Of a DNA stretch of 64,000 nucleotides, positions 1,457 to 62,166 are shown one piece after another. The number at the start of each line of letters is the position of its first letter. The stretch's first letter is position 1. Both the position numbers and the translations under genes were made by a program. Origin of the DNA: an uncultured Ignavibacteria bacterium. GTDB lineage: Bacteria > Zixibacteria > MSB-5A5 > WJJR01 > JAJRUJ01. The notes beneath the pieces are model-generated. The model was not told the DNA's origin and made no database searches. It saw only the letters and a program-made list of their open reading frames with translations. Location: NCBI GenBank assembly GCA_964461835.1, contig CAYWVO010000014.1, positions 6,977 to 70,976 on the forward strand, in the 5' to 3' direction.

Positions 1457-1708
1457 ACTGGCTACCGCCCTCCCCACACTACCCTACTTTACAATACGGC
1501 ATTTCAGAGGCAATATGCCCGGCTGTTTTGCAAAAATGCGGTTGCCAAGAGGAGAATGATCTGCTTTTATCCCCGTAAGTCCATGTTGTCCATAACAAAA
1601 GATCCCGGGGCAATTCCGCTTCTATACAATACTGCGGTGTACCAGCAAAGTACCAGCGTCACGCGAAAAGCAATGGTATAACAATGGCGGATTCCGCGGG
1701 CGACCGTG

Positions 1709-35272: not shown

Positions 35273-35587
35273 ATGAGACTTTTCTCATTACGATCGGGCG
35301 CAGACGGTTGGGGTGGACGCGGCAGACGACGCCGACATCGGCAGTGCCGCAGGGGCGGCCCGACCCTTGCAGAAATCGGCAACGGGGGATGTTTCAAAGT
35401 CACTCGCCTGGCCGCGACCGGGGAAATCCGGCAGCGACTCATTGATATGGGGTTCATTCGGGGCGCTACCGGCCGTGTCTTGCGGGCAGCATTGCTCGGT
35501 GATCCGATCGAGCTGCAAATGCCGGGCTACAAGGTGTCACTACGCCGGTCAGAGGCGCGCAATATTTTTGTTGAGGAAATTGCATGA
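35273..35587 (+). CDS. feoA: Ferrous iron transport protein A.
   Basis: FeoA SH3-like core FKVTRLAATGEIRQRLIDMGFIRG...IELQMPG. Arg-rich N-terminal ~35 aa suggest the true start lies downstream, on a non-ATG codon not identified here. Confidence 0.7.
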   Translation: MRLFSLRSGADGWGGRGRRRRHRQCRRGGPTLAEIGNGGCFKVTRLAATGEIRQRLIDMGFIRGATGRVLRAALLGDPIELQMPGYKVSLRRSEARNIFVEEIA

Positions 35588-37872
35588 CCCGGTTCGCCGA
35601 TCCTCAGGCCGACCCGCGGAAATCATCCACTGCGGCGAGCGAAAAAACCGTCATTCGCGTGGCCCTTGCTGGAAACCCTAACTCGGGCAAAACGAGTCTC
35701 TTCAACGCGCTCACCGGCGCACGCCAACACATCGGAAACTATCCGGGGGTCACGGTCGAAAAGAAGCAGGGCGTGGTTGAATACGGGAACTATCGCATTG
35801 AATTTGTCGATCTGCCCGGCACCTATTCATTAACAGCGTATTCCCTGGAAGAAGTCGTCGCACGCGATTATCTGCTCAAACAAACGCCGGACCTGGTAGT
35901 CGATGTCATCGACACCACCAATCTGGAACGAAACCTCTATCTCCTTCTGCAATTTCAGGAACTTCAGGTGCCCGTCATCGGCGCGCTGAATATGATCGAT
36001 GAGGCAGAACGGCGCGGGATTGAGATTGACGATCAGCAGTTGGACAAGATTCTGGGCATTCCCTTTGTCCGCACGGTGGGACGTACCGGCCGGGGCAAGT
36101 TCGATTTGCTGCGCAAGATCGTCCAGGTCGCGGAGGGCGAAATTGATACCAGCGCCCGCCACTTAAATTACGGCGCCGAACTGGAAAAGCAGCATCACGT
36201 AATCAGCGAAGTACTTGAAACTGATCCCGGCTTCACCAGCAAGTATCCAGCGCATTGGGTGGCAATCAAACTGCTGGAAGAGGATGATGACGCGTATCTG
36301 AAGGTCAGGACGGAACATCGGTATTCCGATGACGTCCTGGCGGTTGCCGAGAAATCACGGGAGTGGGTGGCCAACCATTTTGGCGAGGACAGTCCCACGG
36401 TAGTCGGCGAACAACGCTATGCCTATATCCGGGGTGCCGTTCGAGAAACGGTGGTGGTTGATCGGACCCGTAAACGCATCGATTTTACCGAAAAAATCGA
36501 CGCCGTCATCCTAAACCGCTACCTCGGTGTGTTAATTTTCTTTGGCATCATGTATGCAATGTATGTCGGGGTGTTCACCATTGGCAATCCCGCGGGCGAG
36601 GCGCTGGAGTCGGTTTTTGCCTGGCTGGGTGCTCAGGCCCGCTTGATTCTGCCCGAAGGGATGGTTGCCGATCTCATCGTCGACGGCATCATCGGCGGGG
36701 TCGGCGGTGTTTTGACCTTTTTCCCTATCGTCATCCTGCTGTTCTTGGGACTCTCCTTTCTCGAAGACATCGGCTACATGGCCCGAGCGGCCTTTGTGAT
36801 GGATAAGTTCTTCCACCTCTTCGGGATGCATGGCCGGAGTTTTATCCCATTCATGCTATCTACCGGGTGTGCAGTCCCCGGCGTGATGAGTGCGCGCACG
36901 TTAGTAAACCCCCGGGATCGCATCATCACGGTGCTGGTAGCTCCAATGCTTGTATGTGGCGCCAAGACACCGGTGCTGGCCATGTTTGCCGCGGCGTTTT
37001 TCCCGGAACACGCCGGCGAAGTTTTCTGGGGCATCTGGTTCCTCGGCTGGTTGTTGGCCTTTGTTGCTGGATGGGTTTTTCGAAAGACGCTTTTTCGCGG
37101 AGAATCTTCGCCGTTCGTGATGGAGCTACCGCCCTACCGATTTCCGACCGTGCGCGGTATCCTGACCCATATGTGGGACCGGGGCTGGATGTATGTCCGC
37201 AAAGCGGGAACAATTATTCTCTCCATCTCGATCATCATGTGGTTTCTGCTCTATTTCCCCAAGCCCGCAGAGTACTCCAAGGATTATAATGCTCTCCGGC
37301 AAACGGTCGAAACCACATACCAGCAAAACATCAAAACCTCTGAGCCCGTTCAAGACGCGATAGACGACAACGCAGCAATGGAACTACAGATACAAGCCCA
37401 GCTCGAATATGAATCAGCGCGAGACCGGCAACTGGCTACACTCGATACCCAGCAGGCAGCGGAAGAAATTGACGCCAGTGTCGCGGGACGGGTCGGCCAC
37501 GCACTGGAGCCGATTTTCCGACCCGCGGGATTCGATTGGAAACTCAATATCGGCCTGTTCGCGGGATTCGTCGCCAAAGAGGTGCTGGTATCTACCATGG
37601 CCATCGTGTACGGCATCAGTGACGGCTCCAATACCGAGACTGAGAGCCTAAAATCTCAACTCATTGCCGATCCTCACTATTCTCCTGCCACCGCACTGGC
37701 GCTGATGGTTTTTGCACTCATCTATGCTCCGTGCCTGGCAGTTCAAGCAGTAATCCGTAAAGAACTGGGCAGTTGGAAGTGGTCCGCTCTTTCGCTGGGC
37801 TACACCGTGGTCTTAGCCTGGATCCTGGCCGTTATTGTCCACCAGGGAGCCACACTGGCCGGTCTTGGTTGA
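35584..37872 (+). CDS. feoB: Ferrous iron transporter B.
   Basis: G-protein domain GNPNSGKTSLFNALTG plus a polytopic membrane domain; 762 aa; ATGA overlap with feoA. Confidence 0.92.
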   Translation: MTRFADPQADPRKSSTAASEKTVIRVALAGNPNSGKTSLFNALTGARQHIGNYPGVTVEKKQGVVEYGNYRIEFVDLPGTYSLTAYSLEEVVARDYLLKQTPDLVVDVIDTTNLERNLYLLLQFQELQVPVIGALNMIDEAERRGIEIDDQQLDKILGIPFVRTVGRTGRGKFDLLRKIVQVAEGEIDTSARHLNYGAELEKQHHVISEVLETDPGFTSKYPAHWVAIKLLEEDDDAYLKVRTEHRYSDDVLAVAEKSREWVANHFGEDSPTVVGEQRYAYIRGAVRETVVVDRTRKRIDFTEKIDAVILNRYLGVLIFFGIMYAMYVGVFTIGNPAGEALESVFAWLGAQARLILPEGMVADLIVDGIIGGVGGVLTFFPIVILLFLGLSFLEDIGYMARAAFVMDKFFHLFGMHGRSFIPFMLSTGCAVPGVMSARTLVNPRDRIITVLVAPMLVCGAKTPVLAMFAAAFFPEHAGEVFWGIWFLGWLLAFVAGWVFRKTLFRGESSPFVMELPPYRFPTVRGILTHMWDRGWMYVRKAGTIILSISIIMWFLLYFPKPAEYSKDYNALRQTVETTYQQNIKTSEPVQDAIDDNAAMELQIQAQLEYESARDRQLATLDTQQAAEEIDASVAGRVGHALEPIFRPAGFDWKLNIGLFAGFVAKEVLVSTMAIVYGISDGSNTETESLKSQLIADPHYSPATALALMVFALIYAPCLAVQAVIRKELGSWKWSALSLGYTVVLAWILAVIVHQGATLAGLG

Positions 37873-37946
37873 TTCTGTCCTTATCTGACTTTCAGTCTAC
37901 AAAAGGAACTCTCCACCTTGCCGATATTCAAAAGCGAGGGAATGGT

Positions 37947-39689
37947 ATGTCACCATTTGCTCAAAACGTATCATTGGTGAGGCGAACAATGACCACAACC
38001 AGTGTTGTTCGACTTGGTGATTTATTGGTCAGCCATGGCCGAATTACCGAACACGAACTCTCCCAGGCGCTCAAGCAGCAAAAGGCAACCGGCCGGCGCT
38101 TGGGGGAAATTCTGATTGAGAATGGCACGATTACCGAACATGATCTGGTCGATGTTCTCTCCGAGCGTCTCGGAATTCCCAAGATCGGCATCGAAGGACT
38201 GGTCGCTGATCCGGCAGTTGTTAATATAGTTCCGTTGCGAATTGCCAAGAAATACCGGGTAGTCGCGCTCTTTAAAATCAATGAGAGACTCACTGTCGCG
38301 ATGGCCGACCCGCTGGATATGGTCGCCATCGACGAAATTCGCTATCAGACCGGCCTAACTGTCAATCGCGTGATCGCGGCGCCCTCGGATATCGACGAAG
38401 CCATTGCCACGTTTTACACTGTTGCCGACAATGTCGAGCGGGTCATTCAGGATGTCGCCGCGTCGACGGCCCCAACAATTGAGCGTGGGGACGGCGACGA
38501 TTCGCCCGCCGTTCGGTTGGTGGACGTATTGCTGACCGAGGCAATTCGGCAGCAGGCATCAGATATTCACATCGAACCGGTCGAGGATGCACTCCGGATT
38601 AGATTCCGCATTGACGGGGTACTCCACGAGGAAGCAGAGCCCCCGGCCAATTTGCATGCCGCCATCGCCTCACGCATCAAGGTGTTGGCATCCATGGACG
38701 TCTCGGAAAAACGGATCCCTCAGGACGGCCGTTTCTCCATGGCGCCGGACCAGGACTCGGTAGATCTTCGCGTATCGACCATTCCGACCATCCACGGTGA
38801 GAAAGTTGTCATTCGGGTACTGGGACGCCGCGGACAGAGTCTCGATCTGGATGATCTGGGCTTGGCTGAAAAGCAGCTCGCGATCTTCCGTGAGGAAATC
38901 CAATCCTCTGAGGGCATGATTCTGATCTGTGGGCCGACCTCCAGCGGAAAAACCACTACCTTGTATTCCATCCTCAAACATATAACAACGCCGGAAAAAA
39001 ACATCGTGACCGTGGAAGATCCGGTTGAATACGCGTTAAAAAACATTAACCAGGTGCAGGTCAACGAGAAAGCCGGGCTCACGTTCCCGGTGTGTCTGCG
39101 GGCGTTTTTGCGGCAGAATCCAGATGTGATCATGGTGGGGGAGGTACGTGACAGTCCTACCGCACAGATCGCGATTCGGGCGGCAATGACCGGCCACCTG
39201 GTGCTCTCAACGTTGCATACAATCGACGCCGCCGCCGCGCCTCATCGGCTGATTGACATGGGCGCGGAACGCTATCTGGTCGCCACGGCACTGCGGACAG
39301 TTATTGCTCAGCGTTTAGTGCGTCGGCTGTGCTCCAAATGCGCCGAATCGGTTGTTCCTTCGCAGACGTTACGCGAACAACTGGGTTTCTCGCTCGAGGA
39401 GGAGAGCGGTGAGTGGCGACAGGCTGTGGGGTGTCAGTCTTGTCGCGGTACCGGCTATGACGGACAGGTCGGGATATACGAACTGTACACCGTTGATGAT
39501 GCCGTGCGGACAATGATTGCCGAGGGAATTGGAGCCACACAACTGCGCGACCATCTGCGGGGTCTCCCCCAGTTTTCCGATCTACGAGAGCAATCCCGGG
39601 CATTAGTCACTCAGGGCATCACCACCGCCGAAGAAATCATTCGCGTGGTCCCCCGCCGGGCAGACGTGTGGGAGCATATCGCTGATTAA
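37947..39689 (+). CDS. pilB: Type IV pilus/T2SS assembly ATPase (PilB/GspE family) with an N-terminal MshEN-type domain.
   Basis: Tandem MshEN-like motifs RLGDLLVSHGRITEHEL and LGEILIENGTITEHDL. Walker A GPTSSGKTT. C-terminal tetracysteine CSKC...CQSC. ATG 37947 with GAGGG RBS. Confidence 0.85.
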   Translation: MSPFAQNVSLVRRTMTTTSVVRLGDLLVSHGRITEHELSQALKQQKATGRRLGEILIENGTITEHDLVDVLSERLGIPKIGIEGLVADPAVVNIVPLRIAKKYRVVALFKINERLTVAMADPLDMVAIDEIRYQTGLTVNRVIAAPSDIDEAIATFYTVADNVERVIQDVAASTAPTIERGDGDDSPAVRLVDVLLTEAIRQQASDIHIEPVEDALRIRFRIDGVLHEEAEPPANLHAAIASRIKVLASMDVSEKRIPQDGRFSMAPDQDSVDLRVSTIPTIHGEKVVIRVLGRRGQSLDLDDLGLAEKQLAIFREEIQSSEGMILICGPTSSGKTTTLYSILKHITTPEKNIVTVEDPVEYALKNINQVQVNEKAGLTFPVCLRAFLRQNPDVIMVGEVRDSPTAQIAIRAAMTGHLVLSTLHTIDAAAAPHRLIDMGAERYLVATALRTVIAQRLVRRLCSKCAESVVPSQTLREQLGFSLEEESGEWRQAVGCQSCRGTGYDGQVGIYELYTVDDAVRTMIAEGIGATQLRDHLRGLPQFSDLREQSRALVTQGITTAEEIIRVVPRRADVWEHIAD

Positions 39690-39720
39690 TAGTAACTCTT
39701 TCACTCCCTGAGGATTCCTG

Positions 39721-40932
39721 ATGCCAACCTTCAAATTTGAAGCCGCGGACAGCCAGGGAGTTCGCTCACGAGGGCACCTTTCCGCGGCGACTCATGATGC
39801 GGCCGGGGCAATCCTCCAGCGACAGGGAATGATTCCACTTACTCTCAAGCCGGTGAGTGAGGGGATCAAATGGTGGCCATTGAATGCCAGAGGCCCCCGG
39901 TGGTCACTGGAAAACAAAATTCTGTTTACGCGGAAGTTTGGCTCTCTCTTGCGCGCCGGAATCCCCTTGCTGACGCTGCTGGATATGATTGCGCGCCAGA
40001 TGCGTGCACCACAGATCTCAGTGGCCCTCCACACAGTCCGCGATCGCATTGCGGGTGGCGAACCGCTGGCCGAAGCCCTGGCTGCCTACCCTACCCTGTT
40101 CGACCCGGTCTATCTCGGTGCGGTGAAAGCGGGAGAAGCTACCGGCAGGCTCGATACCGTCCTGGAGCATACTGCTGCTTATCTGGAACGGGAACTGGAA
40201 ACGCGTCGCCGCATCAAAGAAGCGATTCGGTATCCGATCATGGTCATTATCGCGCTGATTGCGGCTGCAATTATCGTGCTGCGCTTCGTCGTCCCCAAAT
40301 TTGCCGGTTTTTACAATAATTATGGGGGCGAATTGCCAGTACCGACTCAGATGCTCATGTTTGCGGCGGATTTAGTCGGTCGCCTGTGGTGGTTGTCCAT
40401 ACCGGTCGCTGCACTCGTAGGCCTTGTAGTCTGGTGGTTACATGGGACGGAACCTGGTCGGGTCTGGCGGGATCGTCAACTATTGCGACTACCCTTAATT
40501 GGTGTCTTGTTCATCAAAGTGGCGGTCAGCCGTTTTGCCCGGCTTTTTGGGGTCCTCTTTTCAGCGGGTCTCCCGACAACGGAGGCGCTTAACACAACCA
40601 CCGCCGGTGTTGGCAATCGCACGATTGCCGCCGAGGTCGCCGCTCTGGGCCGACACATTACCGGTGGGGGATTAATTACCGGCTCCCCCCCGGGGTCGGT
40701 GATGCCTGACCTCGTCTACCAAATGATTTCAATCGGGTTTGAGTCCGGTGACGTCGATGGCATGTTGAGCGAGGTCGCCCGGCACTATGAGCAGGAAATT
40801 GATTACGATGTACGGAACTTGACCGACCGTCTGCAACCAATACTCTTAGTCTTTCTCGCTACCGGTGTCCTAGGGCTGGCGCTCTCGGTCCTGTTGCCGC
40901 TCTGGAATCTGATGAGCATCTTCCGTGGTTAG
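39721..40932 (+). CDS. pilC: Type IV pilus/T2SS platform protein (PilC/GspF).
   Basis: 403 aa; duplicated GspF domains; 3 TM. Confidence 0.85.
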   Translation: MPTFKFEAADSQGVRSRGHLSAATHDAAGAILQRQGMIPLTLKPVSEGIKWWPLNARGPRWSLENKILFTRKFGSLLRAGIPLLTLLDMIARQMRAPQISVALHTVRDRIAGGEPLAEALAAYPTLFDPVYLGAVKAGEATGRLDTVLEHTAAYLERELETRRRIKEAIRYPIMVIIALIAAAIIVLRFVVPKFAGFYNNYGGELPVPTQMLMFAADLVGRLWWLSIPVAALVGLVVWWLHGTEPGRVWRDRQLLRLPLIGVLFIKVAVSRFARLFGVLFSAGLPTTEALNTTTAGVGNRTIAAEVAALGRHITGGGLITGSPPGSVMPDLVYQMISIGFESGDVDGMLSEVARHYEQEIDYDVRNLTDRLQPILLVFLATGVLGLALSVLLPLWNLMSIFRG

Positions 40933-41057
40933 CTCCGTTAGCGCTTACCGTTCAGCGGTGCCACCCGATAAGATTTTTTTCGACCTGACCGATAATAGAA
41001 ATGACCTTAGCCGGTCGAGTGGTGGAGGATAGTAAACTTTTAACAGGAGTGATCCGC

Positions 41058-41495
41058 ATGCGTCAAGTTCGTGGGTTAATGCGCAACCCTGCCGGTTTTA
41101 CGCTGATCGAGCTGGTGATCATCATCGTGGTTCTGGGAATTTTGGCCGCGGTGGCGATCCCGAAATACTTCGACATGGTGAGCGATGCCAAAGAATCGGC
41201 CTGTCGTGGCGCATTGGGGGGCCTGCGCTCAGCGGTATCAATCTGGTATGCCAAAGAAGCCTTGGAGACGGGAACGGCAAGTTGGCCGCCGATTGACTCG
41301 CTGCAGACTGTCGGGATTGTCATGGAACAAAGCATTCCGCCCAATCCGTACCAGTCCGATGACAGCGCGCCGGATTCGATTGTCACCGGCGTGACCAAAG
41401 GTACGACAGTCGGTAGCCGGGGCGGCTGGGCCTACAACCCGTCGACCGGTGAGATCTGGCCGAACACCTCGGTTGCCGGTGAGAACAACTGGTAA
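41058..41495 (+). CDS. Type IV pilin (major pilin candidate).
   Basis: Prepilin N-methylation motif GFTLIELVIIIVVLGILAA. 146 aa. ATG 41058 with AGGAG RBS. Confidence 0.8.
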   Translation: MRQVRGLMRNPAGFTLIELVIIIVVLGILAAVAIPKYFDMVSDAKESACRGALGGLRSAVSIWYAKEALETGTASWPPIDSLQTVGIVMEQSIPPNPYQSDDSAPDSIVTGVTKGTTVGSRGGWAYNPSTGEIWPNTSVAGENNW

Positions 41496-41613
41496 TTGCA
41501 GGTCGACCGAGACGGACGGATTTTCTTTGGAACGTACCGGGTTCAGTAGCGACAATGAGCCCGTCTTTCGTCCCACCATCTTCCCCAGGTGGATCGGCTG
41601 GAGAGGTGTCGGC

Positions 41614-42057
41614 ATGTTCGGGATGAGCCATCGCCATCTTTGCTCGCGCCATGGCTTCACGCTGATTGAGCTGGTCATGGTCATCCTGGTACTGGGAATT
41701 CTTTCCGCGGTTGCCATTCCCGTGATTGGATCATTGTTCGGATCATCAGAAGTAACGGTCACGCGGGAGGAGATGCGGCGGTTGGCAGTCGCAATCAGCG
41801 GCTCGGATCCAACTCGAGACCGCGGGTACGAGGGTGATGTTGGCTACCTGCCGGGATCGCTGGCGGATCTGGTAAGTAAACCGGATTCGGTCGCGGCCTG
41901 GAACGCCTATCAACATGTCGGTTGGAATGGACCCTATATCGATGGGGCCGATAGTGAATACCTAACTGACGCCTGGGGCACGGCTTATATCTATAATCCC
42001 TCGGCGCGGACTATCGCCAGCGTCGGTTCGGGAGATACGATTACCATTACGTTTTAG
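41614..42057 (+). CDS. Pilin/pseudopilin-like protein.
   Basis: HGFTLIELVMVILVLGILSAVAIP class III signal. GGAGAGG RBS. Confidence 0.75.
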   Translation: MFGMSHRHLCSRHGFTLIELVMVILVLGILSAVAIPVIGSLFGSSEVTVTREEMRRLAVAISGSDPTRDRGYEGDVGYLPGSLADLVSKPDSVAAWNAYQHVGWNGPYIDGADSEYLTDAWGTAYIYNPSARTIASVGSGDTITITF

Positions 42058-42065
42058 GCGGGAGC

Positions 42066-43235
42066 GTGAAGGCATTGCGGTACAGACCCACGGACGTCGG
42101 CGACGGATTCACCCTGATCGAAATCCTGATGGTGGTTGTAATCCTGGGAATCCTCGCAACGGTGGCCCTACGCTCTGTGCAGTCCACAATTGAGAGTTCA
42201 CGCGTGTCGGAAACGCAAAAGGAAATGGAACACCTTTCGCACGCTATCGCCGGGAATCCAAATCTCTACAACAACGGCATGCGTTCCGATTTCGGATATG
42301 TCGGCGACGTCGGTGCGGTACCTGCCATTCTCGACGATTTGTTGAGCAATCCCGGCGGCTATGCCACGTGGGACGGTCCGTACGTTTCCGGCCGGTTCAC
42401 CGAGGATGCCGCCGGCTTCAAGACAGACGCCTGGGGTAACGCATATTCTTTCACCAACGGTATCACCATCTCGTCAACTGGTGGTGGCTCAACCCCCCTC
42501 ACCACCTCTGTCGCCTCGGCCGCCAGCGATCTCACAGCAAATCCGGTCGCTGGTTCGCTTACCGATGCCGCAGGCAATCCACCGGGCGATTCGGCGGTCG
42601 CTATTGATGTGATCATCGATTACCCCGACGGGGTCGGGAGTATGACTTCCTCAACCGTCAATCCTAATTCCGGTGGGGGATTCACATTCTCCGGTATCCC
42701 AATCGGCAATCATCTGGTGCGGGCGATCTATCGGGCAACCGATGATACGGTAACTGCTTACACCTCCGTGCTGCCGCGGACCGGCAGTACGTTGACGTTG
42801 CGTCTACCGGGAGACCCGTTTGCTGGAGGGGGCGGAGGCGGGGGCGGCGGCACACCAGGTTCTATTGAATACGTGGAGGGATCAGCCGCTACCACTGGGA
42901 TATTCAATGACGACGTGGAGTTTGATATCATCAACCCCGGCGATGAGGAAGTGACGATCACCTGGCTGATCGCAGAATTCAGCCCCACTGCCTACTTCCA
43001 GCGTATCCGGTGGGGCGGCGCAAATGTTTTCAATGAATCTAATCCCAAGGCGGCCAGCGGCGATACCTGTGTATTCACCTCACCGCAAGCGCTTGGCGCC
43101 GGGTCCTCAGTGGAGATTGATTTGGAGGATTTTCGCGACAGTCCGGTCGGCGGTTGGGGGGTCGATATGTCGAACACCGATTTCACGATCACCTTTTCCG
43201 ATGGATCGGCCATCACTTTCAATAGCGGAACATAA
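42066..43235 (+). CDS. Large pilin-like protein (minor pilin or tip-associated).
   Basis: DGFTLIEILMVVVILGILATVAL N-terminus; Gly-rich linker GGGGGGGG; ~250-aa C-terminal domain. GTG start. Confidence 0.7.
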   Translation: MKALRYRPTDVGDGFTLIEILMVVVILGILATVALRSVQSTIESSRVSETQKEMEHLSHAIAGNPNLYNNGMRSDFGYVGDVGAVPAILDDLLSNPGGYATWDGPYVSGRFTEDAAGFKTDAWGNAYSFTNGITISSTGGGSTPLTTSVASAASDLTANPVAGSLTDAAGNPPGDSAVAIDVIIDYPDGVGSMTSSTVNPNSGGGFTFSGIPIGNHLVRAIYRATDDTVTAYTSVLPRTGSTLTLRLPGDPFAGGGGGGGGGTPGSIEYVEGSAATTGIFNDDVEFDIINPGDEEVTITWLIAEFSPTAYFQRIRWGGANVFNESNPKAASGDTCVFTSPQALGAGSSVEIDLEDFRDSPVGGWGVDMSNTDFTITFSDGSAITFNSGT

Positions 43236-43271
43236 GAAAGCATAATGGAATTTCATTCAGAGTAACGTACC

Positions 43272-44966
43272 ATGGCGGCCGAATCGAATGAACTTTTGCG
43301 GGTTGAACGGACCGAGTCCGCGAAGCCACCGGTAATCGACTCGACGGCTGATGTGGGTCCGGACAATTTCGTCCTCGACCAGGAACCGGAGCAGACTGAG
43401 CCGACACAGCGGATTCGCTGGCAGGATAATCACCGCAAGCGCTTGGCAAGTATCGGCATTGAGTTCGATGGACAGCGCTTGACCGTGGTCGGGTTGTACG
43501 GACGAGGCAGGAAAAAGCGATTCGGCCGGCTGGCCAGGTGTGAATGGCCAAAGACTCCCTCACGAGATGCCCTGATTTCCCAACTGCGCGGATTCATGCT
43601 CAATCAGCATACGCCCATTCATCTGGTTTTAAGTACCCCGCGGGGTATCGTCCGACGGTATCTCATCCCCCAACTGCCACGAGCGAAGCGGCGACAGGCG
43701 GCAATCTGGGAGGGCAAACAACTGGTGCCGTTCCCGCTCGATTATGAGCACGCACTCTTTGGCTTTCATTTTCAGAATGTCGCGAGAAAACAGTGCCAAG
43801 TAACTTTGGTGGCACTGCCTCGGAGTGACGCGGGGGGCATCATTGAGGCTCTCCTCCGGATTGGTATTCCCATTAACAGCATTGTTCTCTCCGGCACGCA
43901 AAATCCTCCCCGATACGAACGGGGAGGCTTAAGCCACCCAGAGGGTATCGATGCCGTCGTCCTTTGTTCACCCAGCCGGGCAGCCTTTGTCGCTTTTGCC
44001 GGGGACAATATCACGTTTCACTATGACCTCGGCGCCCTGCCGGTGCAGACCGGGAGCATTGCCGGGACGCAACCACAACCGAGTGATAATGCCTTTTCCT
44101 GGATCTTTGAATTACGGCCAATGATTTCCGATGCGCTTGATTTTTTCACCAGCAGCCATCCCAACGTGACGTTGACCCATTTGCATGTCGTGGGGATGGA
44201 CGAATCACTGGCTCCACATCTTACCGAGTTAGCGGAACGATTTACCGAAGGAATCGAAGTCGTAAATCCACTCCTGGATTTTTCCGCATCGCTCCCCGAT
44301 GATTTTCAAGAATGGATTCGAAAGAACATCGGCGCATTTACGCCGGCGTCACTCGCCGCCGCCGGGCGTCCGGCGATTGATCTGTCGCCATCACACCTCC
44401 GGTGCGATCGGTGGAATCTACGGTTGATTAAGTATGCTCGCACGGCGTTTATCGTCTCACTGGCCGTGATCGCAGCGGTTACCGGTCTGCTGGTGCAACA
44501 TCTTCTGGCCAGGCAGCAGGCGGTTGACTTGGCTCGACGTGAACTCCACCAATTGCAAAACTCACCACCGGTTCAAAACGTGACCGGCGCGATGACCAGC
44601 CTGATTGAGTATCAGGCATTTGCGTCATCTCTTGATGAACGGCCAGAACGATGGATGCCCTGGCTAAAAACCATGTTTGCCACTATGCCACTTAATTGCC
44701 GTCTGGATCTTCTGACTGTCGAGCCGACTCCCGTGCCAGATGCCGAGGCAGCCCTGAGAATTCGCCTGGCCGGATCATTAAGTCCCGAGAGCACACCGCA
44801 CGCGGTCAACTATCATTCCTGGTTGACCGATCTTGAGCGATTGGCCGGCCCAGGGAATGTTGAGTTGGCGGACGAACGTCGCATCAACTGGAAAGGGCGA
44901 ACCCGTTCAGCGTTTACCATTATTCTGACTCCACCACGCAGTCGGGTACTGGGGGAGAACCGATGA
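43272..44966 (+). CDS. pilM: PilM-like actin-fold ATPase fused to a PilN-like TM/coiled-coil segment.
   Basis: Position in the cluster plus a single TM (FIVSLAVIAAVTGLL) followed by a periplasmic segment at the C-terminus. 564 aa, longer than PilM alone. Confidence 0.6.
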   Translation: MAAESNELLRVERTESAKPPVIDSTADVGPDNFVLDQEPEQTEPTQRIRWQDNHRKRLASIGIEFDGQRLTVVGLYGRGRKKRFGRLARCEWPKTPSRDALISQLRGFMLNQHTPIHLVLSTPRGIVRRYLIPQLPRAKRRQAAIWEGKQLVPFPLDYEHALFGFHFQNVARKQCQVTLVALPRSDAGGIIEALLRIGIPINSIVLSGTQNPPRYERGGLSHPEGIDAVVLCSPSRAAFVAFAGDNITFHYDLGALPVQTGSIAGTQPQPSDNAFSWIFELRPMISDALDFFTSSHPNVTLTHLHVVGMDESLAPHLTELAERFTEGIEVVNPLLDFSASLPDDFQEWIRKNIGAFTPASLAAAGRPAIDLSPSHLRCDRWNLRLIKYARTAFIVSLAVIAAVTGLLVQHLLARQQAVDLARRELHQLQNSPPVQNVTGAMTSLIEYQAFASSLDERPERWMPWLKTMFATMPLNCRLDLLTVEPTPVPDAEAALRIRLAGSLSPESTPHAVNYHSWLTDLERLAGPGNVELADERRINWKGRTRSAFTIILTPPRSRVLGENR

Positions 44967-45541
44967 GACGACCATCCGCCTGGCTCATCTGGACCGGTGC
45001 CGCGCTGGCCGTGTGGATCATCTGGGGATTGCTAATAGCAATGACTGTGCAACGCTCGCTTTCGGACCTTGCGCAGGAACGTGATACACTCAAGAGCGAA
45101 ACCGCCAAAGCCACGGCATTGCTCGCCAACGCGCCCCTGGTTGCCCGACGTCTGGATTCTCTCGGCACATCCCTGCAGAAGACGACGCAACGATTCTACT
45201 CTCTCGAAGAACTGCGGCAATTGGAAGCAGCGGTACAACGGCCAGCGAATGATCATGACATAGCCGAGACTTCGGTTGAGTTGGAATTAAACTCAGTTCT
45301 TGATTTGCAGCAATCCCCTCCGGGCGACATTCCCCGGATCGACACGGTGGGTATCAACGTTTCCGCCCATGGCGACTTTCAGGCAATCGGCCGGTGGCTG
45401 GATGATATCGAGCAACGTGTCGATTTCACACAATGGAGGGGCGCCCGCTGGGAAAATGGAAACAAGGTGAACATGGTGACTTTTGCCGGCATTGCGGCCT
45501 TCCGGATTGCAGTCAATCGCTGGGATGCGGCGGAAAGATGA
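44963..45541 (+). CDS. pilO: PilO-like/GspM-like inner-membrane pilus assembly protein.
   Basis: Single N-terminal TM, coiled-coil, periplasmic domain. ATGA overlap with the upstream gene. Confidence 0.6.
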   Translation: MRRPSAWLIWTGAALAVWIIWGLLIAMTVQRSLSDLAQERDTLKSETAKATALLANAPLVARRLDSLGTSLQKTTQRFYSLEELRQLEAAVQRPANDHDIAETSVELELNSVLDLQQSPPGDIPRIDTVGINVSAHGDFQAIGRWLDDIEQRVDFTQWRGARWENGNKVNMVTFAGIAAFRIAVNRWDAAER

Positions 45542-45554
45542 CCGGATAAGAACG

Positions 45555-46049
45555 ATGAACGAACCCACCCGAAAAAAAGTGCTTTTTGTCGTGTTGATCG
45601 CCGCCGTGATGTTTGCGCTGGTCATGCAGCCCTGGAAGAGCGATCCTCCCCAACGCAGCGAACCTGAAGCCGATGGGTCTTTAACCCCATCAGCACCCGC
45701 GGCCGTGGCAACTATGGTCCAACCGCCGCAACGGGTATCCACCGGAGATCATCCGCACATCGAATTTTCGCACACCTGGCCGGAAAATCCATTCAATGAC
45801 CCATTTGCCGACGAGAGCCTTGCGGCGGTATCAACTGTCCCTTCGCTCGGCGAAGACCTGCAATTACAAGGAATTTTGTCCACCAACGGGCAGCGGGTAT
45901 GTGTGATCAACGGTCAAACCTATGAAACCGCCATGACGGTTCAGGGATGGCGCATTGTGGAGATACAAAACTCCGCTGTCCTGCTGCAACGCAAAGGCAA
46001 CACCCGGAAGATGGTGCTCCCTGAACCAGAGACGGGGCAGGAAAGTTGA
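45555..46049 (+). CDS. pilP: PilP-like lipoprotein/pilot.
   Basis: N-terminal TM/signal. C-terminal beta domain LQGILSTNGQRVCVINGQTYETAMTVQGWRIVEI, typical of PilP/GspC homology regions. Confidence 0.6.
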   Translation: MNEPTRKKVLFVVLIAAVMFALVMQPWKSDPPQRSEPEADGSLTPSAPAAVATMVQPPQRVSTGDHPHIEFSHTWPENPFNDPFADESLAAVSTVPSLGEDLQLQGILSTNGQRVCVINGQTYETAMTVQGWRIVEIQNSAVLLQRKGNTRKMVLPEPETGQES

Positions 46050-46050
46050 G

Positions 46051-47355
46051 ATGAAACTACGACACCGGATATCGACACTCTTTCTCGGCTTGGCGATTTT
46101 GCTCGGGATTTTATTGGCGTCATTCGCCAAAGCAAAACCGCCGCCCCAGGAGGTAACCATCCACTTCGCTCAGACTGAGATAGCAACGATCATCGTCTCC
46201 CTCGCTGCCACGGTCGGTTTTGACGTGGTCATCGGCACGGGTGTTGATGGCATCATTGATATCAATTTGACGGACGTTGACTGGCAAACTGCGCTCGACG
46301 CGCTGGCCTCAGCCAATGGTCTTGCCTACCGCTGGGAAGCAAACGTGCTTGTCGTGGTCTCGGCAGACAATCGGAACCGGGGAGATATTGAGCACCATGT
46401 TGTCGAGTTGGAACACGCCGATCCGCTCGCAATCCAACAAGCACTAACTAAGGTCCTCTCCTCGCGCGGAAGCGTGGAACTGCTCGGTGGACAGCCAAGC
46501 GCCGCGATCGAGGGTCAAAAACCAGCGGCACGACTGATTATCAGCGAAGTGCGACATCATCTGCCGGCAGTCCTGGCGGTGATCGACGATCTCGATGTCA
46601 GGCGTCCGCAGTTTGAGATTACCGTTAAGTTCATCGAAACAGACTTAGACGAGCAGGAGGGCTTGGGAATAAACTGGCCCACTCGCTTGACTGCCAACCT
46701 TGCCGATTACGAAAATCTCGATGGGACCACGAGCGATCAGAATCAACCAACACCTGCAGCAGAATACAATATTCCCGATGGGAAAATCTGGAAATTGGGG
46801 ACACTGTCGATTAATCAACTGACCGGGTTCATTGAATTTCTTGAACAGGACGGCAATTCGCGTTTGTTGTCCGATCCTCGGGTCACCGTGCTGGAGAACG
46901 AGACCGCCAATATGCGGGTCACCACTACTTTCCCGATTCAAACCGTGACACGGTTTACGGAAGGCGCCATCATCCAGGACATTGTGGATTTTCAGGACCT
47001 GGAAGTCGGGATTACTCTGTCAGTAACTCCCCGGCTCAATGATTCGACCACGATCACCCTGGATGTAGAGCCGGTAATCGAGGAAATCACCGGGTTCACC
47101 GGCCCAACCGACAACCAGCGTCCAATTCGTGCCCGGCGAACCGTAAAAACCACGGTGCGGGTCGAGAACGAGGAGACCATCGTTCTGGGTGGATTGGTGC
47201 GTGAGACACAGTTTCAAACACATTCTGGGATCTGGTTGCTCAAGGATATCCCACTCCTGGGTTCCGTATTTTCCCACACCAAGACCGAGAAAAAGAAGAC
47301 CGATCTGCTTATTTTCATCACCCCACGCATTGTCGCAGAATTCGCAGGCAGTTGA
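46051..47355 (+). CDS. pilQ: Secretin (PilQ/GspD family).
   Basis: Signal peptide, N-domains, and C-terminal secretin core ending LLIFITPRIV. AGGAAAG RBS. Confidence 0.85.
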   Translation: MKLRHRISTLFLGLAILLGILLASFAKAKPPPQEVTIHFAQTEIATIIVSLAATVGFDVVIGTGVDGIIDINLTDVDWQTALDALASANGLAYRWEANVLVVVSADNRNRGDIEHHVVELEHADPLAIQQALTKVLSSRGSVELLGGQPSAAIEGQKPAARLIISEVRHHLPAVLAVIDDLDVRRPQFEITVKFIETDLDEQEGLGINWPTRLTANLADYENLDGTTSDQNQPTPAAEYNIPDGKIWKLGTLSINQLTGFIEFLEQDGNSRLLSDPRVTVLENETANMRVTTTFPIQTVTRFTEGAIIQDIVDFQDLEVGITLSVTPRLNDSTTITLDVEPVIEEITGFTGPTDNQRPIRARRTVKTTVRVENEETIVLGGLVRETQFQTHSGIWLLKDIPLLGSVFSHTKTEKKKTDLLIFITPRIVAEFAGS

Positions 47356-47438
47356 CATTCACATGGCTGCAGAATGACAAACCAACCACCCCACCTGCCG
47401 TATCATCTCAAGCAATTGAACGACTTAGAGGAGGCAGC

Positions 47439-47765
47439 ATGCTGGTAATTTCGGAGAAGGCCGGCGAGGAAATCGCCAAAGTGCTTGATCAGGAACAGTA
47501 TAAGGATAAACACCTTGTGCTGTACTTCCAGGGTGCCGGTTGAAGCGGCCCCCAGTTGGGGATGACTCTGTATGAGTCAACGGAGGGCCTGGAAAAATAT
47601 GAATCCGCCGGAATTGAGGCCTACATGGACCCGCGAGTTTATGCGGAACTGGGAAAACTCGGAGACATCAACGTGGATTTCGTCACGAATCAATTCGGCC
47701 AAAGCGGCTTTAAAATTGCTGTAGGTAACGGCGATTGCGCGGACAGCGGCTGTCGCGGCTGCTAA
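47439..47765 (+). CDS. HesB/IscA-like Fe-S assembly protein with in-frame TGA (47542-47544): probable selenoprotein.
   Basis: Two adjacent same-frame ORFs (47352-47543 and 47556-47765) are joined by a single TGA. The read-through product ...KHLVLYFQGAG-U-SGPQLGMTLYE...GDCADSGCRGC places the UGA at the invariant first Cys of the IscA GCSG motif. The C-terminal CxxxC-x-C is retained. GGAGG RBS before ATG 47439. Hairpins lie immediately 3' of the UGA. Confidence 0.75.
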
Positions 47766-47789: not shown

Positions 47790-47812
47790 AGCCCCTCCGG
47801 TGAGGGGCTTTT
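47790..47812 (+). terminator. Intrinsic terminator.
   Basis: GCCCCTC-CGGT-GAGGGGC followed by TTTTT. Confidence 0.7.
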
Positions 47813-47827
47813 TCATAGGAGATCTTC

Positions 47828-48942: not shown

Positions 48943-50301
<1,359 letters not shown>

Positions 50302-50332
50302 TGGTGACCTCCTCCTCTATGTTGGTGCAGTC

Positions 50333-51178
50333 TTATTCGTTAAACACAAATGTCGGCTCACGGTAAAACCGGATTGATTTTTCCCGAATGCGTCCCCGGA
50401 TCATACTCCGCAAACGTTTGTTCTTCTGTTCGAGGTTCTCGTTCATGCGCAGGAAGTCCAGCGATATATTAAGCCCTAATGCACGTTTTGGTAAAAATAC
50501 CCGAGTAACACCGGTGGGCAACGATAATCCCTGTTCCACCATCTGCACCAATTCATCCTTGGTAAAACGCCGGAATTCAATTAACGCCTGAAAGTCGGGA
50601 TAATTGCTCTTCAAATGTCCGATGTTGGTATAACTGACGCGGTCAAAATACGGCGATTTTAAATAGAGGCCGGTAATGTCGCGCAATACTCCAATCCGAC
50701 CGTCAAGCCCGTCGGCCTGGGTGACCTGCAACGCGTGATTATCAGCGAAGGTCACACGGCACACTGAATCATTCGACAATTCTGCCCCTGGCTCGGTTTC
50801 GGCGATTGTGACATTGTTCATCTTTTCCAGGGTCGATTCAATTTTGCTGCGGTCCATCTGTTCAATCGCATGATGCCAGGTGTGTAATTGCAGCAAGGGG
50901 TCGTCCAGGCCAATCACTTGCACCACCACGTGTTTGAAACCCCACTCATTGAGAGCGGCAATGCGGTTGGCGCCGTCCAGCAGGATGTACTGTTCGAACC
51001 GACGACTTCGTGCCACGATCGGTGGATTTTTCAGTCGGCCACCGACCCGCAGGTCCTCTACGATACCGGCGTAGCGGCTGCGATCAGTTTCCTCATGATA
51101 CACTAAGTCATCTAAGGCAATGACCTGTAATTCCGGTAATGCCCCGATTTCCAGATGGTTATTTAACCCGTTATCCAT
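50333..51178 (-). CDS. ParB/sulfiredoxin-fold (DGxxR-motif) domain protein of unknown function.
   Basis: The N-terminal ~110 aa (ALDDLVYHEETD...NPPIVAR...YILLDGANRIAAL) resemble ParB N-terminal/DUF262-like NTP-binding domains. C-terminal 170 aa are unassigned. Confidence 0.5.
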   Translation of the reverse strand: MDNGLNNHLEIGALPELQVIALDDLVYHEETDRSRYAGIVEDLRVGGRLKNPPIVARSRRFEQYILLDGANRIAALNEWGFKHVVVQVIGLDDPLLQLHTWHHAIEQMDRSKIESTLEKMNNVTIAETEPGAELSNDSVCRVTFADNHALQVTQADGLDGRIGVLRDITGLYLKSPYFDRVSYTNIGHLKSNYPDFQALIEFRRFTKDELVQMVEQGLSLPTGVTRVFLPKRALGLNISLDFLRMNENLEQKNKRLRSMIRGRIREKSIRFYREPTFVFNE

Positions 51179-55876: not shown

Positions 55877-56487
55877 TCTCATCCGTCTGTCATGTGCACA
55901 TCGTAATCGTGGGATTTATGCAAGCCCTTGCATGCCCGGTGGGAGTATGTACATTTTTTTGCACCAGCGCATGCCTCGGTTGATCGTATTCTGTAACGGG
56001 AGATATCCTTCTATCTTGTTTATTCAAAAGGGCTTAGTCAATAATTAGGTTGCCGGCAGCTTTGCGGGGGCTATTTCGTACAATTGGCATATATAATGCG
56101 TCAATTTCCCAACGATGGAAAAACCGTGTTCAGAAGTGTCTGTATCATGGAGCAACAAGGACATAATCATTTGACTTTGGGAGATTTTGAGCTAACTTAA
56201 TGCGCGTAGGAGGCTTGGAGTCATAAGGACGACTGTTTCATTATCAATGTCCGGCACTCACCTTATGACCTGTCAATGAAGCCCAACTGTTACTCGTTGA
56301 AACCGCATTTCGGTTGAACTAGAAGGGTGATTTAAAGCCGATCTGAGAACTCTGGCCGCATGTCCTGATGAGCACATTTACCTATCTGATATGAAAAACT
56401 ACTTTAAGAGAACATGGCAAACTGATTGTGAGCGAAGAATTCTTACTTCCTCGCCGCTCCGATTGTGAAACGTATGGAGGTGTAGGT

Positions 56488-62100: not shown

Positions 62101-62166
62101 CGTGTATCGAATACAACCCGGCAGGCAGTGTCCAAGCACTGTCTGCCTTGATTGGGGGTACCATTC

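What the first reader, a model, noticed from the sequence alone, without database searches (positions are those of the whole stretch)
47352..47765. In-frame UGA at the invariant first Cys of a HesB/IscA-like protein: probable selenoprotein split by ORF calling.
The ORF track shows two same-frame ORFs, 47352-47543 and 47556-47765, separated by one TGA at 47542-47544. Reading through gives LVLYFQGAG-U-SGPQLGM..., which aligns residue-for-residue with the IscA consensus xxGGCSGxxY; the U sits on the first conserved cluster-ligating Cys. The C-terminal Cys pair (CADSGCRGC) is intact. A strong GGAGG RBS precedes ATG 47439. Two hairpins begin 7 nt after the UGA: CCCC-AGUU-GGGG (47551-47562) and UGACUC-UGUAU-GAGUCA (47564-47580). 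Both have GU-containing loops, as expected for a bacterial SECIS. A HesB-like selenoprotein family has been reported from metagenomes. If real, this genome must carry selA/selB/selD/tRNA-Sec elsewhere, and automated annotation will have truncated this gene.
Basis: partly seen in the sequence, partly recalled or inferred. Interest (0 to 1): 0.85.

Follow-up and report, generated by a model that had tools for sequence, protein, structure and literature searches.

The report
Split HesB/IscA-like selenoprotein gene in Zixibacteria
The two small reading frames are one 108-residue HesB/IscA-like gene whose 35th codon, UGA, almost certainly encodes selenocysteine; it belongs to a known kind of selenoprotein, in a Zixibacteria branch that annotation pipelines routinely cut in two.

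Summary
ATG 47439, in-frame TGA 47541-47543 and TAA 47763-47765 define one 108-codon gene.

Seventeen distinct orthologous DNA sequences, almost all from Zixibacteria assemblies, carry TGA at the same codon 35, with both halves conserved. Close Cys forms carry TGC there.

All 17 Sec forms have two small hairpins just after the UGA. H2 (47563-47579) meets the published bacterial SECIS criteria on all four counts. It also shows suppressed synonymous variation and compensatory changes. H1 (47549-47561) covaries at the third positions of two Gly codons. The two close Cys forms lack H2.

Profile and fold comparisons place the protein in the IscA/SufA/HesB fold, with Sec on the first cluster-ligating Cys. 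It has the UxGP motif of known HesB-like selenoproteins. It scores below the curated cut-offs of both NCBIfam models for them, so it is a divergent, unannotated clade.

TGA is an ordinary stop elsewhere in the window.

Not shown: selA, selB, selD and tRNA-Sec. None lies in the 64 kb window or the fetched flanks, and the rest of the genome could not be reached. The biochemical role is inferred only.

This is a new member of a known kind, of moderate interest.

The parts
47430..47434 (+). Shine-Dalgarno-like GGAGG, 4 nt upstream of the start codon
   Evidence: Read directly from the sequence. Homologues start at the equivalent Met, always 34 codons before the TGA.
47439..47765 (+). Single coding sequence of 108 codons plus TAA stop: HesB/IscA-like selenoprotein
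   Evidence: Translation. Best NCBIfam match is NF038090 IscA_HesB_Se, E 4.6e-12, over residues 1-96. The family profile matches PDB 2apn at E 2.9e-11 and 1nwb at 1.2e-8, full length. An AlphaFold model of the 62%-identical Cys orthologue (pLDDT 88) matches IscA/SufA with TM about 0.7.
47541..47543 (+). In-frame UGA, codon 35, read as selenocysteine
   Evidence: TGA sits at the same codon in 17 distinct homologous sequences; close Cys forms have TGC there. The position aligns with the first ligand Cys of IscA-family proteins. TGA ends 18 of 44 long ORFs in the window, so the genetic code is standard.
47549..47561 (+). Hairpin H1: 4-bp stem 47549-52 / 47558-61, loop CAGUU. Conserved accessory hairpin that does not fit the SECIS model on its own
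   Evidence: RNAalifold predicts it independently. 92% of cells are paired. Pair 9-21 shows CG5/UA4/GC3/GU1 at the third positions of two Gly codons, and pair 12-18 shows CG12/AU1/GC1. Permutation p = 0.00012 for pair 9-21, ignoring phylogeny.
47563..47579 (+). Hairpin H2, the SECIS core: 6-bp stem UGACUC/GAGUCA, 5-nt loop UGUAU, 25 nt between UGA and loop
   Evidence: 99% of cells are paired in 16 Sec forms. Pair 25-37 shows AU11/GU4/GC1, with the compensatory GC in L029. Stem energy alone is -7.9 kcal/mol. Synonymous variation is suppressed at codons 43-48. H2 is absent from Cys forms L002a and L009a, at -0.8 and +8.2 kcal/mol. It meets the bSECIS criteria quoted in PMC13188914.
47736..47762 (+). 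C-terminal Cys cluster C100-x4-C105-x2-C108, on a tail predicted to be flexible
   Evidence: It aligns to the C-terminal CGCG of HI1723 and Aq_1857. The tail varies among homologues (CxxCxC, CC, CxxxxCxxC) but always holds at least two Cys. pLDDT is below 50 for residues 98-105 in the orthologue model.
47790..47814 (+). Terminator-like hairpin AGCCCCUC-CGGU-GAGGGGCU followed by UUUUC
   Evidence: Read by eye. The consensus scanner did not report it. Similar GC hairpins with T runs follow the gene in L001 and L002. Inference only.

Best explanation
Window 47439-47765 is one gene for a 108-residue protein of the A-type carrier (IscA/SufA/HesB) fold. Residue 35, the first of the three cluster-ligating cysteines of that fold, is selenocysteine encoded by UGA 47541-47543.

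Proposed recoding mechanism: a SECIS element lies inside the coding sequence. [quoted passage not shown] A second conserved hairpin, H1 (47549-47561), sits between the UGA and H2.

Proposed protein function: it probably binds or transfers iron or an Fe-S cluster, or performs a related redox step. It would use Sec35 together with the Cys-rich flexible C-terminal tail (C100, C105, C108).

Shown here:
- The single reading frame.
- Conservation of the TGA codon and the Cys/Sec alternation among homologues.
- The conserved, covarying RNA structure.
- The fold and the position of Sec within it.

Inferred:
- That SelB and tRNA-Sec exist in this genome.
- What H1 does.
- The biochemical role of the protein.
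For: One frame, ATG to TAA, with a single TGA.

TGA at codon 35 occurs in 17 distinct homologous DNA sequences that are 41-69% identical at protein level, with both halves conserved. Seven genome-collection hits are all Zixibacteria or unclassified MAGs.

Among 111 protein clusters, 56 are C-terminal fragments starting just after the TGA and 9 have W at the site (TGA read as Trp by callers using genetic code 4, where TGA means Trp). Eleven close relatives have Cys. All 12 fragment clusters whose DNA was fetched had the TGA and a 34-codon N-terminal ORF.

The two-hairpin structure is predicted independently by RNAalifold. It is 96.3% paired, against 26-48% when the partners are slid. Three pairs show double changes, and 0 of 500 shuffles reach the observed covariation score.

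Synonymous codon choice is nearly frozen at codons 43-48: ACT 11/11, CTG 15/16, GAG 16/16, TCA 13/15, ACG 10/10. It is free elsewhere in the gene.

The two close Cys forms have lost H2. H2 meets the bSECIS loop, stem, G-position, spacing and energy criteria.

TGA is a normal stop for 18 of 44 long ORFs.

Profile hits to IscA-family structures put U on the ligand Cys. The fold search returns IscA, SufA, HI1723, Aq_1857 and DsrR as the top nine hits. The UxGP motif matches the known HesB-like selenoprotein family (PMC13188914).
Against: - No selA, selB, selD or tRNA-Sec was found in the window or in about 300 kb of fetched flanks. The rest of the genome could not be searched.
- No second selenoprotein gene was seen in the window.
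- H2 is short (6 bp) and only just passes the -7.5 kcal/mol criterion.
- One orthologue, L008, has loop UAUAU with no G.
- The protein scores below the curated cut-offs of TIGR01911, NF038090 and TIGR00049, and gives no Pfam hit.
- The structure model is of a Cys orthologue, not of the window protein itself.
- No experiment bears on selenium incorporation or on function.
Confidence: 0.88

Rival explanations
1. The TGA is a genuine stop. The locus holds two separate small genes (34 aa and 67 aa), or a pseudogene of an IscA-like gene.
For: Every public gene caller annotated it that way. No Sec machinery was seen in the window.
Against: A nonsense mutation would not stay at the same codon in 17 diverged orthologues with both halves under protein-level conservation. 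The downstream ATG 47562 has no spacer-separated ribosome-binding site. The IscA fold needs both halves: one HMM stretch spans residues 2-106. A covarying hairpin is tied to TGA and absent with TGC.
Confidence: 0.03
2. The organism reads TGA as a standard amino acid (Trp or Gly, genetic code 4 or 25). The site would then be W or G rather than Sec.
For: Some ENA/Logan gene calls translated these genes with W at the site.
Against: TGA terminates 18 of 44 long ORFs in the window. The same code-4 calls also run through the genes' real TGA stops (P0003 ends ...CSCWSG). Homologues have Cys, not Trp or Gly, at this column. The site is the metal-ligand Cys of the fold.
Confidence: 0.02
3. The UGA is read through without selenium, for example by Cys or Trp near-cognate decoding. 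The hairpins would then be only a by-product of conserved amino acids (G-P-x-L-G-M-T-L-Y-E-S).
For: H1 is built partly from Gly and Pro codons that are self-complementary by nature. H2 encodes a conserved peptide. The Sec machinery is unverified.
Against: Covariation sits at four-fold degenerate third positions: pair 9-21 has four pair types (p = 0.00012). Synonymous sites in codons 43-48 are frozen while those elsewhere vary freely. When Cys replaces Sec, both the hairpin and the MTLYES peptide drift. The Sec/Cys alternation combined with a stem-loop that fits the bSECIS model is the established signature of bacterial selenoprotein genes (PMC9312934).
Confidence: 0.05
4. Sequencing or assembly error turned TGC into TGA in this contig.
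For: It would be a single-base difference from the Cys codon.
Against: The same TGA is present in independent assemblies from NCBI, JGI, ENA and Logan, including a second assembly of the same organism, L003.
Confidence: 0.01

Closest known systems
HesB-like selenoprotein family (NCBIfam TIGR01911 HesB_rel_seleno; listed with motif UxGP in PMC13188914; 11 members counted in PMC1794560)
   Same: A small (about 100 aa) HesB/IscA-fold protein. Sec replaces the first conserved Cys. The U-x-G-P motif is present as U-S-G-P. Cys-containing homologues exist, the SECIS lies inside the coding sequence, and the hosts are anaerobes.
   Different: The score is 31.1 bits against a cut-off of 66.35, so it is not a member by the curated model. 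The lineage is Zixibacteria rather than Deltaproteobacteria or Firmicutes. The tail is a very C-terminal Cys cluster of variable form.
NCBIfam NF038090 IscA_HesB_Se (IscA/HesB family protein, mostly deltaproteobacterial)
   Same: This is the best-scoring family (E 4.6e-12, residues 1-96 on profile 1-91/101). The GxGC/U-SGPxLGxxLDE core is shared. Distant hits P0071, P0078, P0096 and P0098 pass its cut-off.
   Different: The window protein and its close Cys relatives score 39-60 bits against a cut-off of 85. They form a separate clade.
A-type Fe-S carriers IscA, SufA and ErpA (PDB 1r94, 1s98, 1x0g, 2d2a, 2apn, 1nwb)
   Same: Same fold: TM 0.6-0.7 for the orthologue model. Full-length profile alignment, with a ligand position at residue 35 and C-terminal Cys residues.
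   Different: Sec replaces Cys at ligand 1. The motif is SGP rather than SGF/SGY. The C-terminal motif is C-x4-C-x2-C at the extreme end rather than C-G-C-G. The gene is not in an isc or suf operon and its neighbours vary. It falls below the TIGR00049 and Pfam PF01521 thresholds.
Bacterial SECIS consensus (bSECISearch model, as summarised in PMC13188914)
   Same: H2 has a 5-nt apical loop, a 6-bp stem, G followed by U or G at loop position 2, 25 nt between UGA and loop, and energy at or below -7.5 kcal/mol.
   Different: A second conserved, covarying hairpin (H1) lies between the UGA and the SECIS core. A continuous lower stem is not conserved, at 62% paired.

Membership tests
Bacterial selenoprotein gene (UGA recoded to Sec) | In-frame UGA with conserved coding sequence on both sides | tested here: met
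   Seventeen distinct orthologous sequences share TGA at codon 35 with both halves conserved.
Bacterial selenoprotein gene (UGA recoded to Sec) | Homologues with Cys aligned to the UGA | tested here: met
   L002a, L009a/L014a and P0006-P0021 have TGC/Cys at that column.
Bacterial selenoprotein gene (UGA recoded to Sec) | SECIS stem-loop downstream: loop 3-9 nt, stem 4-16 bp, G in the first two loop positions, 16-37 nt from UGA, MFE <= -7.5 kcal/mol | tested here: met
   H2 has loop UGUAU, a 6-bp stem, 25-nt spacing and -7.9 kcal/mol alone; the 54-nt region folds at -20.5. Criteria are from PMC13188914. Sixteen of 17 orthologues have the loop G.
Bacterial selenoprotein gene (UGA recoded to Sec) | Genome encodes selA, selB, selD and tRNA-Sec | not testable with these tools
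   None is in the 64-kb window or the fetched flanks. Other contigs of the genome could not be retrieved. The AIRS-family gene in L030 is PurM, not SelD.
Bacterial selenoprotein gene (UGA recoded to Sec) | Selenium actually incorporated into the protein | not testable with these tools
   This needs 75Se labelling or mass spectrometry.
HesB/IscA A-type carrier fold (Pfam PF01521, TIGR00049) | Score above the curated family threshold | tested here: not met
   No Pfam hit. TIGR00049 scores 32.6 bits against a cut-off of 58.8.
HesB/IscA A-type carrier fold (Pfam PF01521, TIGR00049) | Significant full-length profile similarity to solved members, and the same fold | tested here: met
   The family profile matches 2apn at E 2.9e-11 and 1nwb at 1.2e-8. 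The model of Cys orthologue P0002 (pLDDT 88.2) has IscA, SufA, HI1723, Aq_1857 and DsrR as its top nine PDB hits, with TM up to 0.71.
HesB/IscA A-type carrier fold (Pfam PF01521, TIGR00049) | Three conserved ligand Cys (one in the GCSG motif, two in the C-terminal C-G-C) | tested here: inconclusive
   Position 1 is Sec. The C-terminal Cys residues are present but spaced C-x4-C-x2-C, and the spacing varies among homologues.
HesB-like selenoprotein, TIGR01911 | Score at or above the 66.35-bit cut-off | tested here: not met
   31.1 bits.
HesB-like selenoprotein, TIGR01911 | UxGP motif with Sec at the HesB conserved Cys | tested here: met
   U35-S-G-P. The motif is as listed in PMC13188914.
NF038090 IscA_HesB_Se | Score at or above the 85-bit cut-off | tested here: not met
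   46.1 bits for the window protein and 39-60 bits for its close Cys relatives. Deltaproteobacterial hits score 103-135 bits.

The most novel reading that the evidence does not exclude
This clade of HesB-like selenoproteins may use a bipartite SECIS. In that reading the conserved, covarying hairpin H1, only 5 nt after the UGA, would be functionally required alongside the canonical H2. That would be a distinct class of bacterial SECIS. Separately, the tandem Cys-form/Sec-form gene pairs seen in some genomes (L002, L009/L014) could be a selenium-responsive isoform switch for an Fe-S carrier. Together these would be the first documented Sec-decoding trait and selenoprotein family for the candidate phylum Zixibacteria.
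Probability: 0.3. Interest if true: 0.55.

Novelty: new member of a known kind. Interest (0 to 1): 0.38.

Why it matters
- **Annotation.** The gene is mis-annotated in every public Zixibacteria assembly examined. It appears as a 34-aa ORF plus a 59-83-aa 'hypothetical protein' or 'IscA' fragment. The two curated NCBIfam models meant to catch HesB-like selenoproteins miss it, so a dedicated model would repair dozens of records.
- **Physiology.** It implies that Zixibacteria decode UGA as selenocysteine. I found no statement of this in the searchable literature.
- **RNA structure.** It supplies a clean natural data set for how a SECIS is embedded in a coding sequence: 17 Sec forms, close Cys forms, and tandem Cys/Sec paralogues.
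- **Biochemistry.** It offers a way to ask what selenium does at the ligand position of an A-type Fe-S carrier.

None of this changes the picture of how selenoproteins work.

Tried and rejected
1. **Sec machinery.** ARAGORN found no tRNA in the window or in ten loci. tblastn with E. coli SelA, SelB and SelD against the window plus all loci gave only a weak GTPase-domain hit, which is FeoB, and a hit to an AIRS-family protein in L030, which is PurM.
2. **Rfam.** No family matched at gathering thresholds over the window. Only noise appeared at E up to 10 around the site.
3. **Other selenoprotein genes.** A scan for TGA-bridged ORF pairs in the window gave only Arg-rich non-coding-looking frames. 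A coding-potential-weighted scan over all loci recovered only the HesB-like genes.
4. **Metagenome scan.** It chose a peptide pattern that included my Cys placeholder, so it returned only Cys forms.
5. **Structure prediction.** The model is therefore of Cys orthologue P0002.
6. **Long lower stem.** In the window's minimum-energy fold, GGCCCCC pairs with GGAGGGCC under H2. This stem is only 62% paired across orthologues and was rejected as the conserved structure.
7. **Promoter and terminator scan.** It found nothing. The terminator-like hairpin at 47790-47809 is by eye only.
8. **Literature.** Searches for Zixibacteria plus selenocysteine or selenoprotein gave nothing on a Sec trait in the phylum.
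Full report
**1. The observation**

The sequence shows ATG at 47439-47441, preceded by GGAGG at 47430-47434. An in-frame TGA lies at 47541-47543 and the stop TAA at 47763-47765. The mechanical ORF list splits this into 47352-47543 and 47556-47765.

Otherwise the description is exact. Read-through gives a 108-residue protein: MLVISEKAGEEIAKVLDQEQYKDKHLVLYFQGAG-U-SGPQLGMTLYESTEGLEKYESAGIEAYMDPRVYAELGKLGDINVDFVTNQFGQSGFKIAVGNGDCADSGCRGC.

**2. Relatives and the state of codon 35**

A first protein search found only five relatives.
- Three are 67-aa C-terminal fragments.
- One is a full-length Cys form, P0002.
- One is a full-length form with W at the site, P0003. Its DNA has TGA there and again at its real stop, so a gene caller using genetic code 4 (TGA read as Trp) made it.

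In the fetched contigs, each fragment is preceded by a 34-codon ORF in the same frame that ends in TGA.

A scan of one genome per species returned seven loci. Six are labelled Candidatus Zixiibacteriota and one 'bacterium'. Six carry TGA at codon 35 and one carries TGC.

A profile search gave 111 protein clusters:
- 56 C-terminal fragments that begin just after the site;
- 9 forms with W at the site;
- 11 close Cys forms;
- 35 more distant Cys forms, several of them named IscA/HesB family protein from Deltaproteobacteria.

More contigs fetched for diverse fragments always showed the 34-codon ORF plus TGA. In total, 17 distinct Sec-form DNA sequences were read.

In L002 and in L009/L014, the close Cys form lies immediately upstream of a Sec-form paralogue, and the stop and start overlap (TGTAAATG). 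In the only three loci where a close Cys form could be seen in genomic context (L002; L009 and L014, which share the same sequence), a Sec form sits beside it.

**3. Excluding a different genetic code or an error**

TGA ends 18 of the 44 long ORFs (150 codons or more) in the window. A second assembly of the same organism, L003, has the same TGA. The aligned residue in relatives is Cys, not Trp or Gly.

**4. The RNA element**

Folding 60 nt from the UGA gives -20.5 kcal/mol in the window, z = -2.1. The hairpin UGACUC-UGUAU-GAGUCA appears in every Sec form folded, but not in the Cys form.

On a gap-free alignment of 16 Sec forms, RNAalifold predicts two hairpins:
- H1, columns 9-12 with 18-21, which is window 47549-52 with 47558-61;
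- H2, columns 23-28 with 34-39, which is window 47563-68 with 47574-79.

Counting pairs on that structure gives these results:
- 96.3% of cells are paired, against 26-48% when partners are slid by 1-3 columns.
- Three pairs change on both sides.
- No shuffle out of 500 reaches the observed covariation score.

The most telling pair is 9-21, the third positions of two Gly codons. It reads CG in 5 sequences, UA in 4, GC in 3 and GU in 1. The permutation p is 0.00012 on 17 sequences, ignoring phylogeny. Pair 12-18 reads CG 12, AU 1, GC 1. Pair 25-37 in H2 reads AU 11, GU 4, GC 1; the GC is in L029, where Ser47 became Pro and Thr43 became Ala.

Synonymous codon choice is almost frozen across codons 43-48. 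Thr43 is ACT in 11 of 11 (and Ala43 is GCT in all five other sequences, so the third base is always T). CTG is used in 15 of 16, GAG in 16 of 16, TCA in 13 of 15, and ACG in 10 of 10. Elsewhere, comparable codons use nearly all their synonyms.

The two close Cys forms cannot form H2, at -0.8 and +8.2 kcal/mol. Their peptide at that place has drifted from MTLYES to MTLYDT and ITLNDN.

The longer lower stem in the window's own minimum-energy fold is only 62% paired across orthologues.

**5. Comparison with the SECIS model**

The published bacterial model asks for four things (PMC13188914):
- a 3-9 nt apical loop on a 4-16 bp stem;
- a G in the first two loop positions, usually followed by G or U;
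- 16-37 nt between the UGA and the loop;
- an energy of -7.5 kcal/mol or lower.

H2 has a 5-nt loop UGUAU, 6 bp, 25 nt of spacing and -7.9 kcal/mol on its own. Sixteen of 17 orthologues keep the loop G; L008 has UAUAU.

H1 fails the model. Its loop is CAGUU and lies only 9 nt from the UGA. H2 is therefore the SECIS core, and H1 is a conserved extra hairpin of unknown role. Rfam has no matching family.

**6. The protein**

NCBIfam gives significant full-length matches that all fall below the curated cut-offs:

| Model | Score (bits) | Cut-off (bits) |
|---|---|---|
| NF038090 IscA_HesB_Se | 46.1 | 85 |
| TIGR00049 | 32.6 | 58.8 |
| TIGR01911 HesB_rel_seleno | 31.1 | 66.35 |

Pfam gives nothing. 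Close Cys relatives behave the same way, scoring 39-60 bits on NF038090, while the distant deltaproteobacterial hits pass it at 103-135 bits. This is a separate clade.

A profile of 12 family members matches two IscA-family structures end to end: HI1723 (2apn) at E 2.9e-11 and Aq_1857 (1nwb) at 1.2e-8. The Sec column falls on the Cys of their GGCSG motif, and the C-terminal Cys residues fall on their CGCG.

An AlphaFold model of Cys orthologue P0002 (62% identical, pLDDT 88.2) has IscA, SufA, HI1723, Aq_1857 and DsrR as its nine best PDB matches, with TM up to 0.71. Its C-terminal Cys tail is disordered.

The motif U-S-G-P is the UxGP motif listed for the known HesB-like selenoprotein family (PMC13188914). 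That family has been recognised in Deltaproteobacteria, Clostridia and other groups since the mid-2000s (PMC1794560).

**7. Context**

In the window the gene stands alone.
- Upstream is a type IV pilus / type II secretion-like cluster that ends in a secretin at 45955-47355.
- Downstream are an isochorismatase-family hydrolase and a glyoxalase-fold protein.

Neighbours differ among orthologous loci. They include an LRR-Roc protein, topoisomerase I, a glycogen-synthesis cluster, a serpin and glutamate dehydrogenase. No isc or suf operon is nearby.

A GC-rich hairpin followed by a T run comes after the gene here and in L001 and L002, although the simple scanner did not call it. T9SS sorting domains in nearby proteins fit an FCB-group organism such as Zixibacteria.

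**8. What is not shown**

- No selA, selB, selD or tRNA-Sec lies in the window or in the fetched flanks. The tools gave no way to read the other contigs of this genome.
- No second selenoprotein gene was found in the window.
- The literature available here says nothing about a Sec trait in Zixibacteria.
- The function of HesB-like selenoproteins is not established for any member. The Fe or Fe-S handling role proposed here is inferred from the fold and the ligand positions.

**9. Verdict**

This is a genuine selenoprotein gene of the HesB-like kind, in a Zixibacteria-wide clade that current family models and gene callers miss. It is a new member of a known kind.

Three features go slightly beyond the routine: the conserved second hairpin between the UGA and the SECIS core, the tandem Cys/Sec paralogues in some genomes, and the implied Sec decoding in Zixibacteria.

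Noticed in passing
L002 10001-10623; L009 10001-10720; L014 3001-3720: A Cys-form HesB-like gene lies directly upstream of a Sec-form paralogue, with the stop and start overlapping (TGTAAATG). It could be a Cys/Sec isoform pair for selenium-limited versus selenium-replete conditions.
   Followed up: partly
window 48943-51178 (- strand): A TrpB-like PLP enzyme (NF009057, 717 bits) sits next to an SbnI/SerK-like kinase that forms O-phosphoserine. This may be an O-phosphoserine-dependent TrpB2-type pair.
   Followed up: no
window 35584-37872 (+): FeoB ferrous iron transporter (TIGR00437, 594 bits), about 10 kb upstream of the HesB-like gene. The linkage is not conserved in the orthologous loci.
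   Followed up: partly
window 37773-47355 (+): Type IV pilus / type II secretion-like cluster (PilB/GspE, PilC/GspF, several unannotated ORFs, secretin). A similar cluster lies upstream of the orthologue in L001, separated from it there by an LRR-Roc gene.
   Followed up: partly
window 56428-63495 (+): A 1890-aa protein with HYR_4C, cohesin, BACON and T9SS C-terminal sorting domains, followed by a second protein with a Por_Secre_tail domain. This is consistent with an FCB-group organism.
   Followed up: no
window 1-1700: A stretch of about 1.7 kb with no ORF over 100 codons of plausible composition, no Rfam hit and no tandem repeat, at 52-59% GC. It may be a decayed gene or non-coding DNA.
   Followed up: partly
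L004, L005 and protein clusters P0003, P0010-P0013, P0017, P0019, P0022, P0023: Some ENA/Logan gene calls used a code in which TGA means Trp. These selenoprotein genes therefore appear full length, with W at the Sec site and a false C-terminal extension past the real TGA stop.
   Followed up: yes
L008 10103-10156: This orthologue's SECIS loop is UAUAU (Leu codon CUA instead of CUG). It is the only one of 17 without the conserved loop G.
   Followed up: no
window codon 48 (47580-47582) and orthologues: Thr48 just after H2 is ACG in 10 of 10 sequences that have Thr there, and Ser36 is AGC in 11 of 12. This points to RNA-level constraints beyond the two hairpins.
   Followed up: no
L030 (GCA_035562415.1, DATMWY010000209.1): NCBI labels the record Candidatus Deferrimicrobium sp. 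Its gene order around the HesB-like gene matches the Zixibacteria locus L022, so the label or the binning may be wrong.
   Followed up: no
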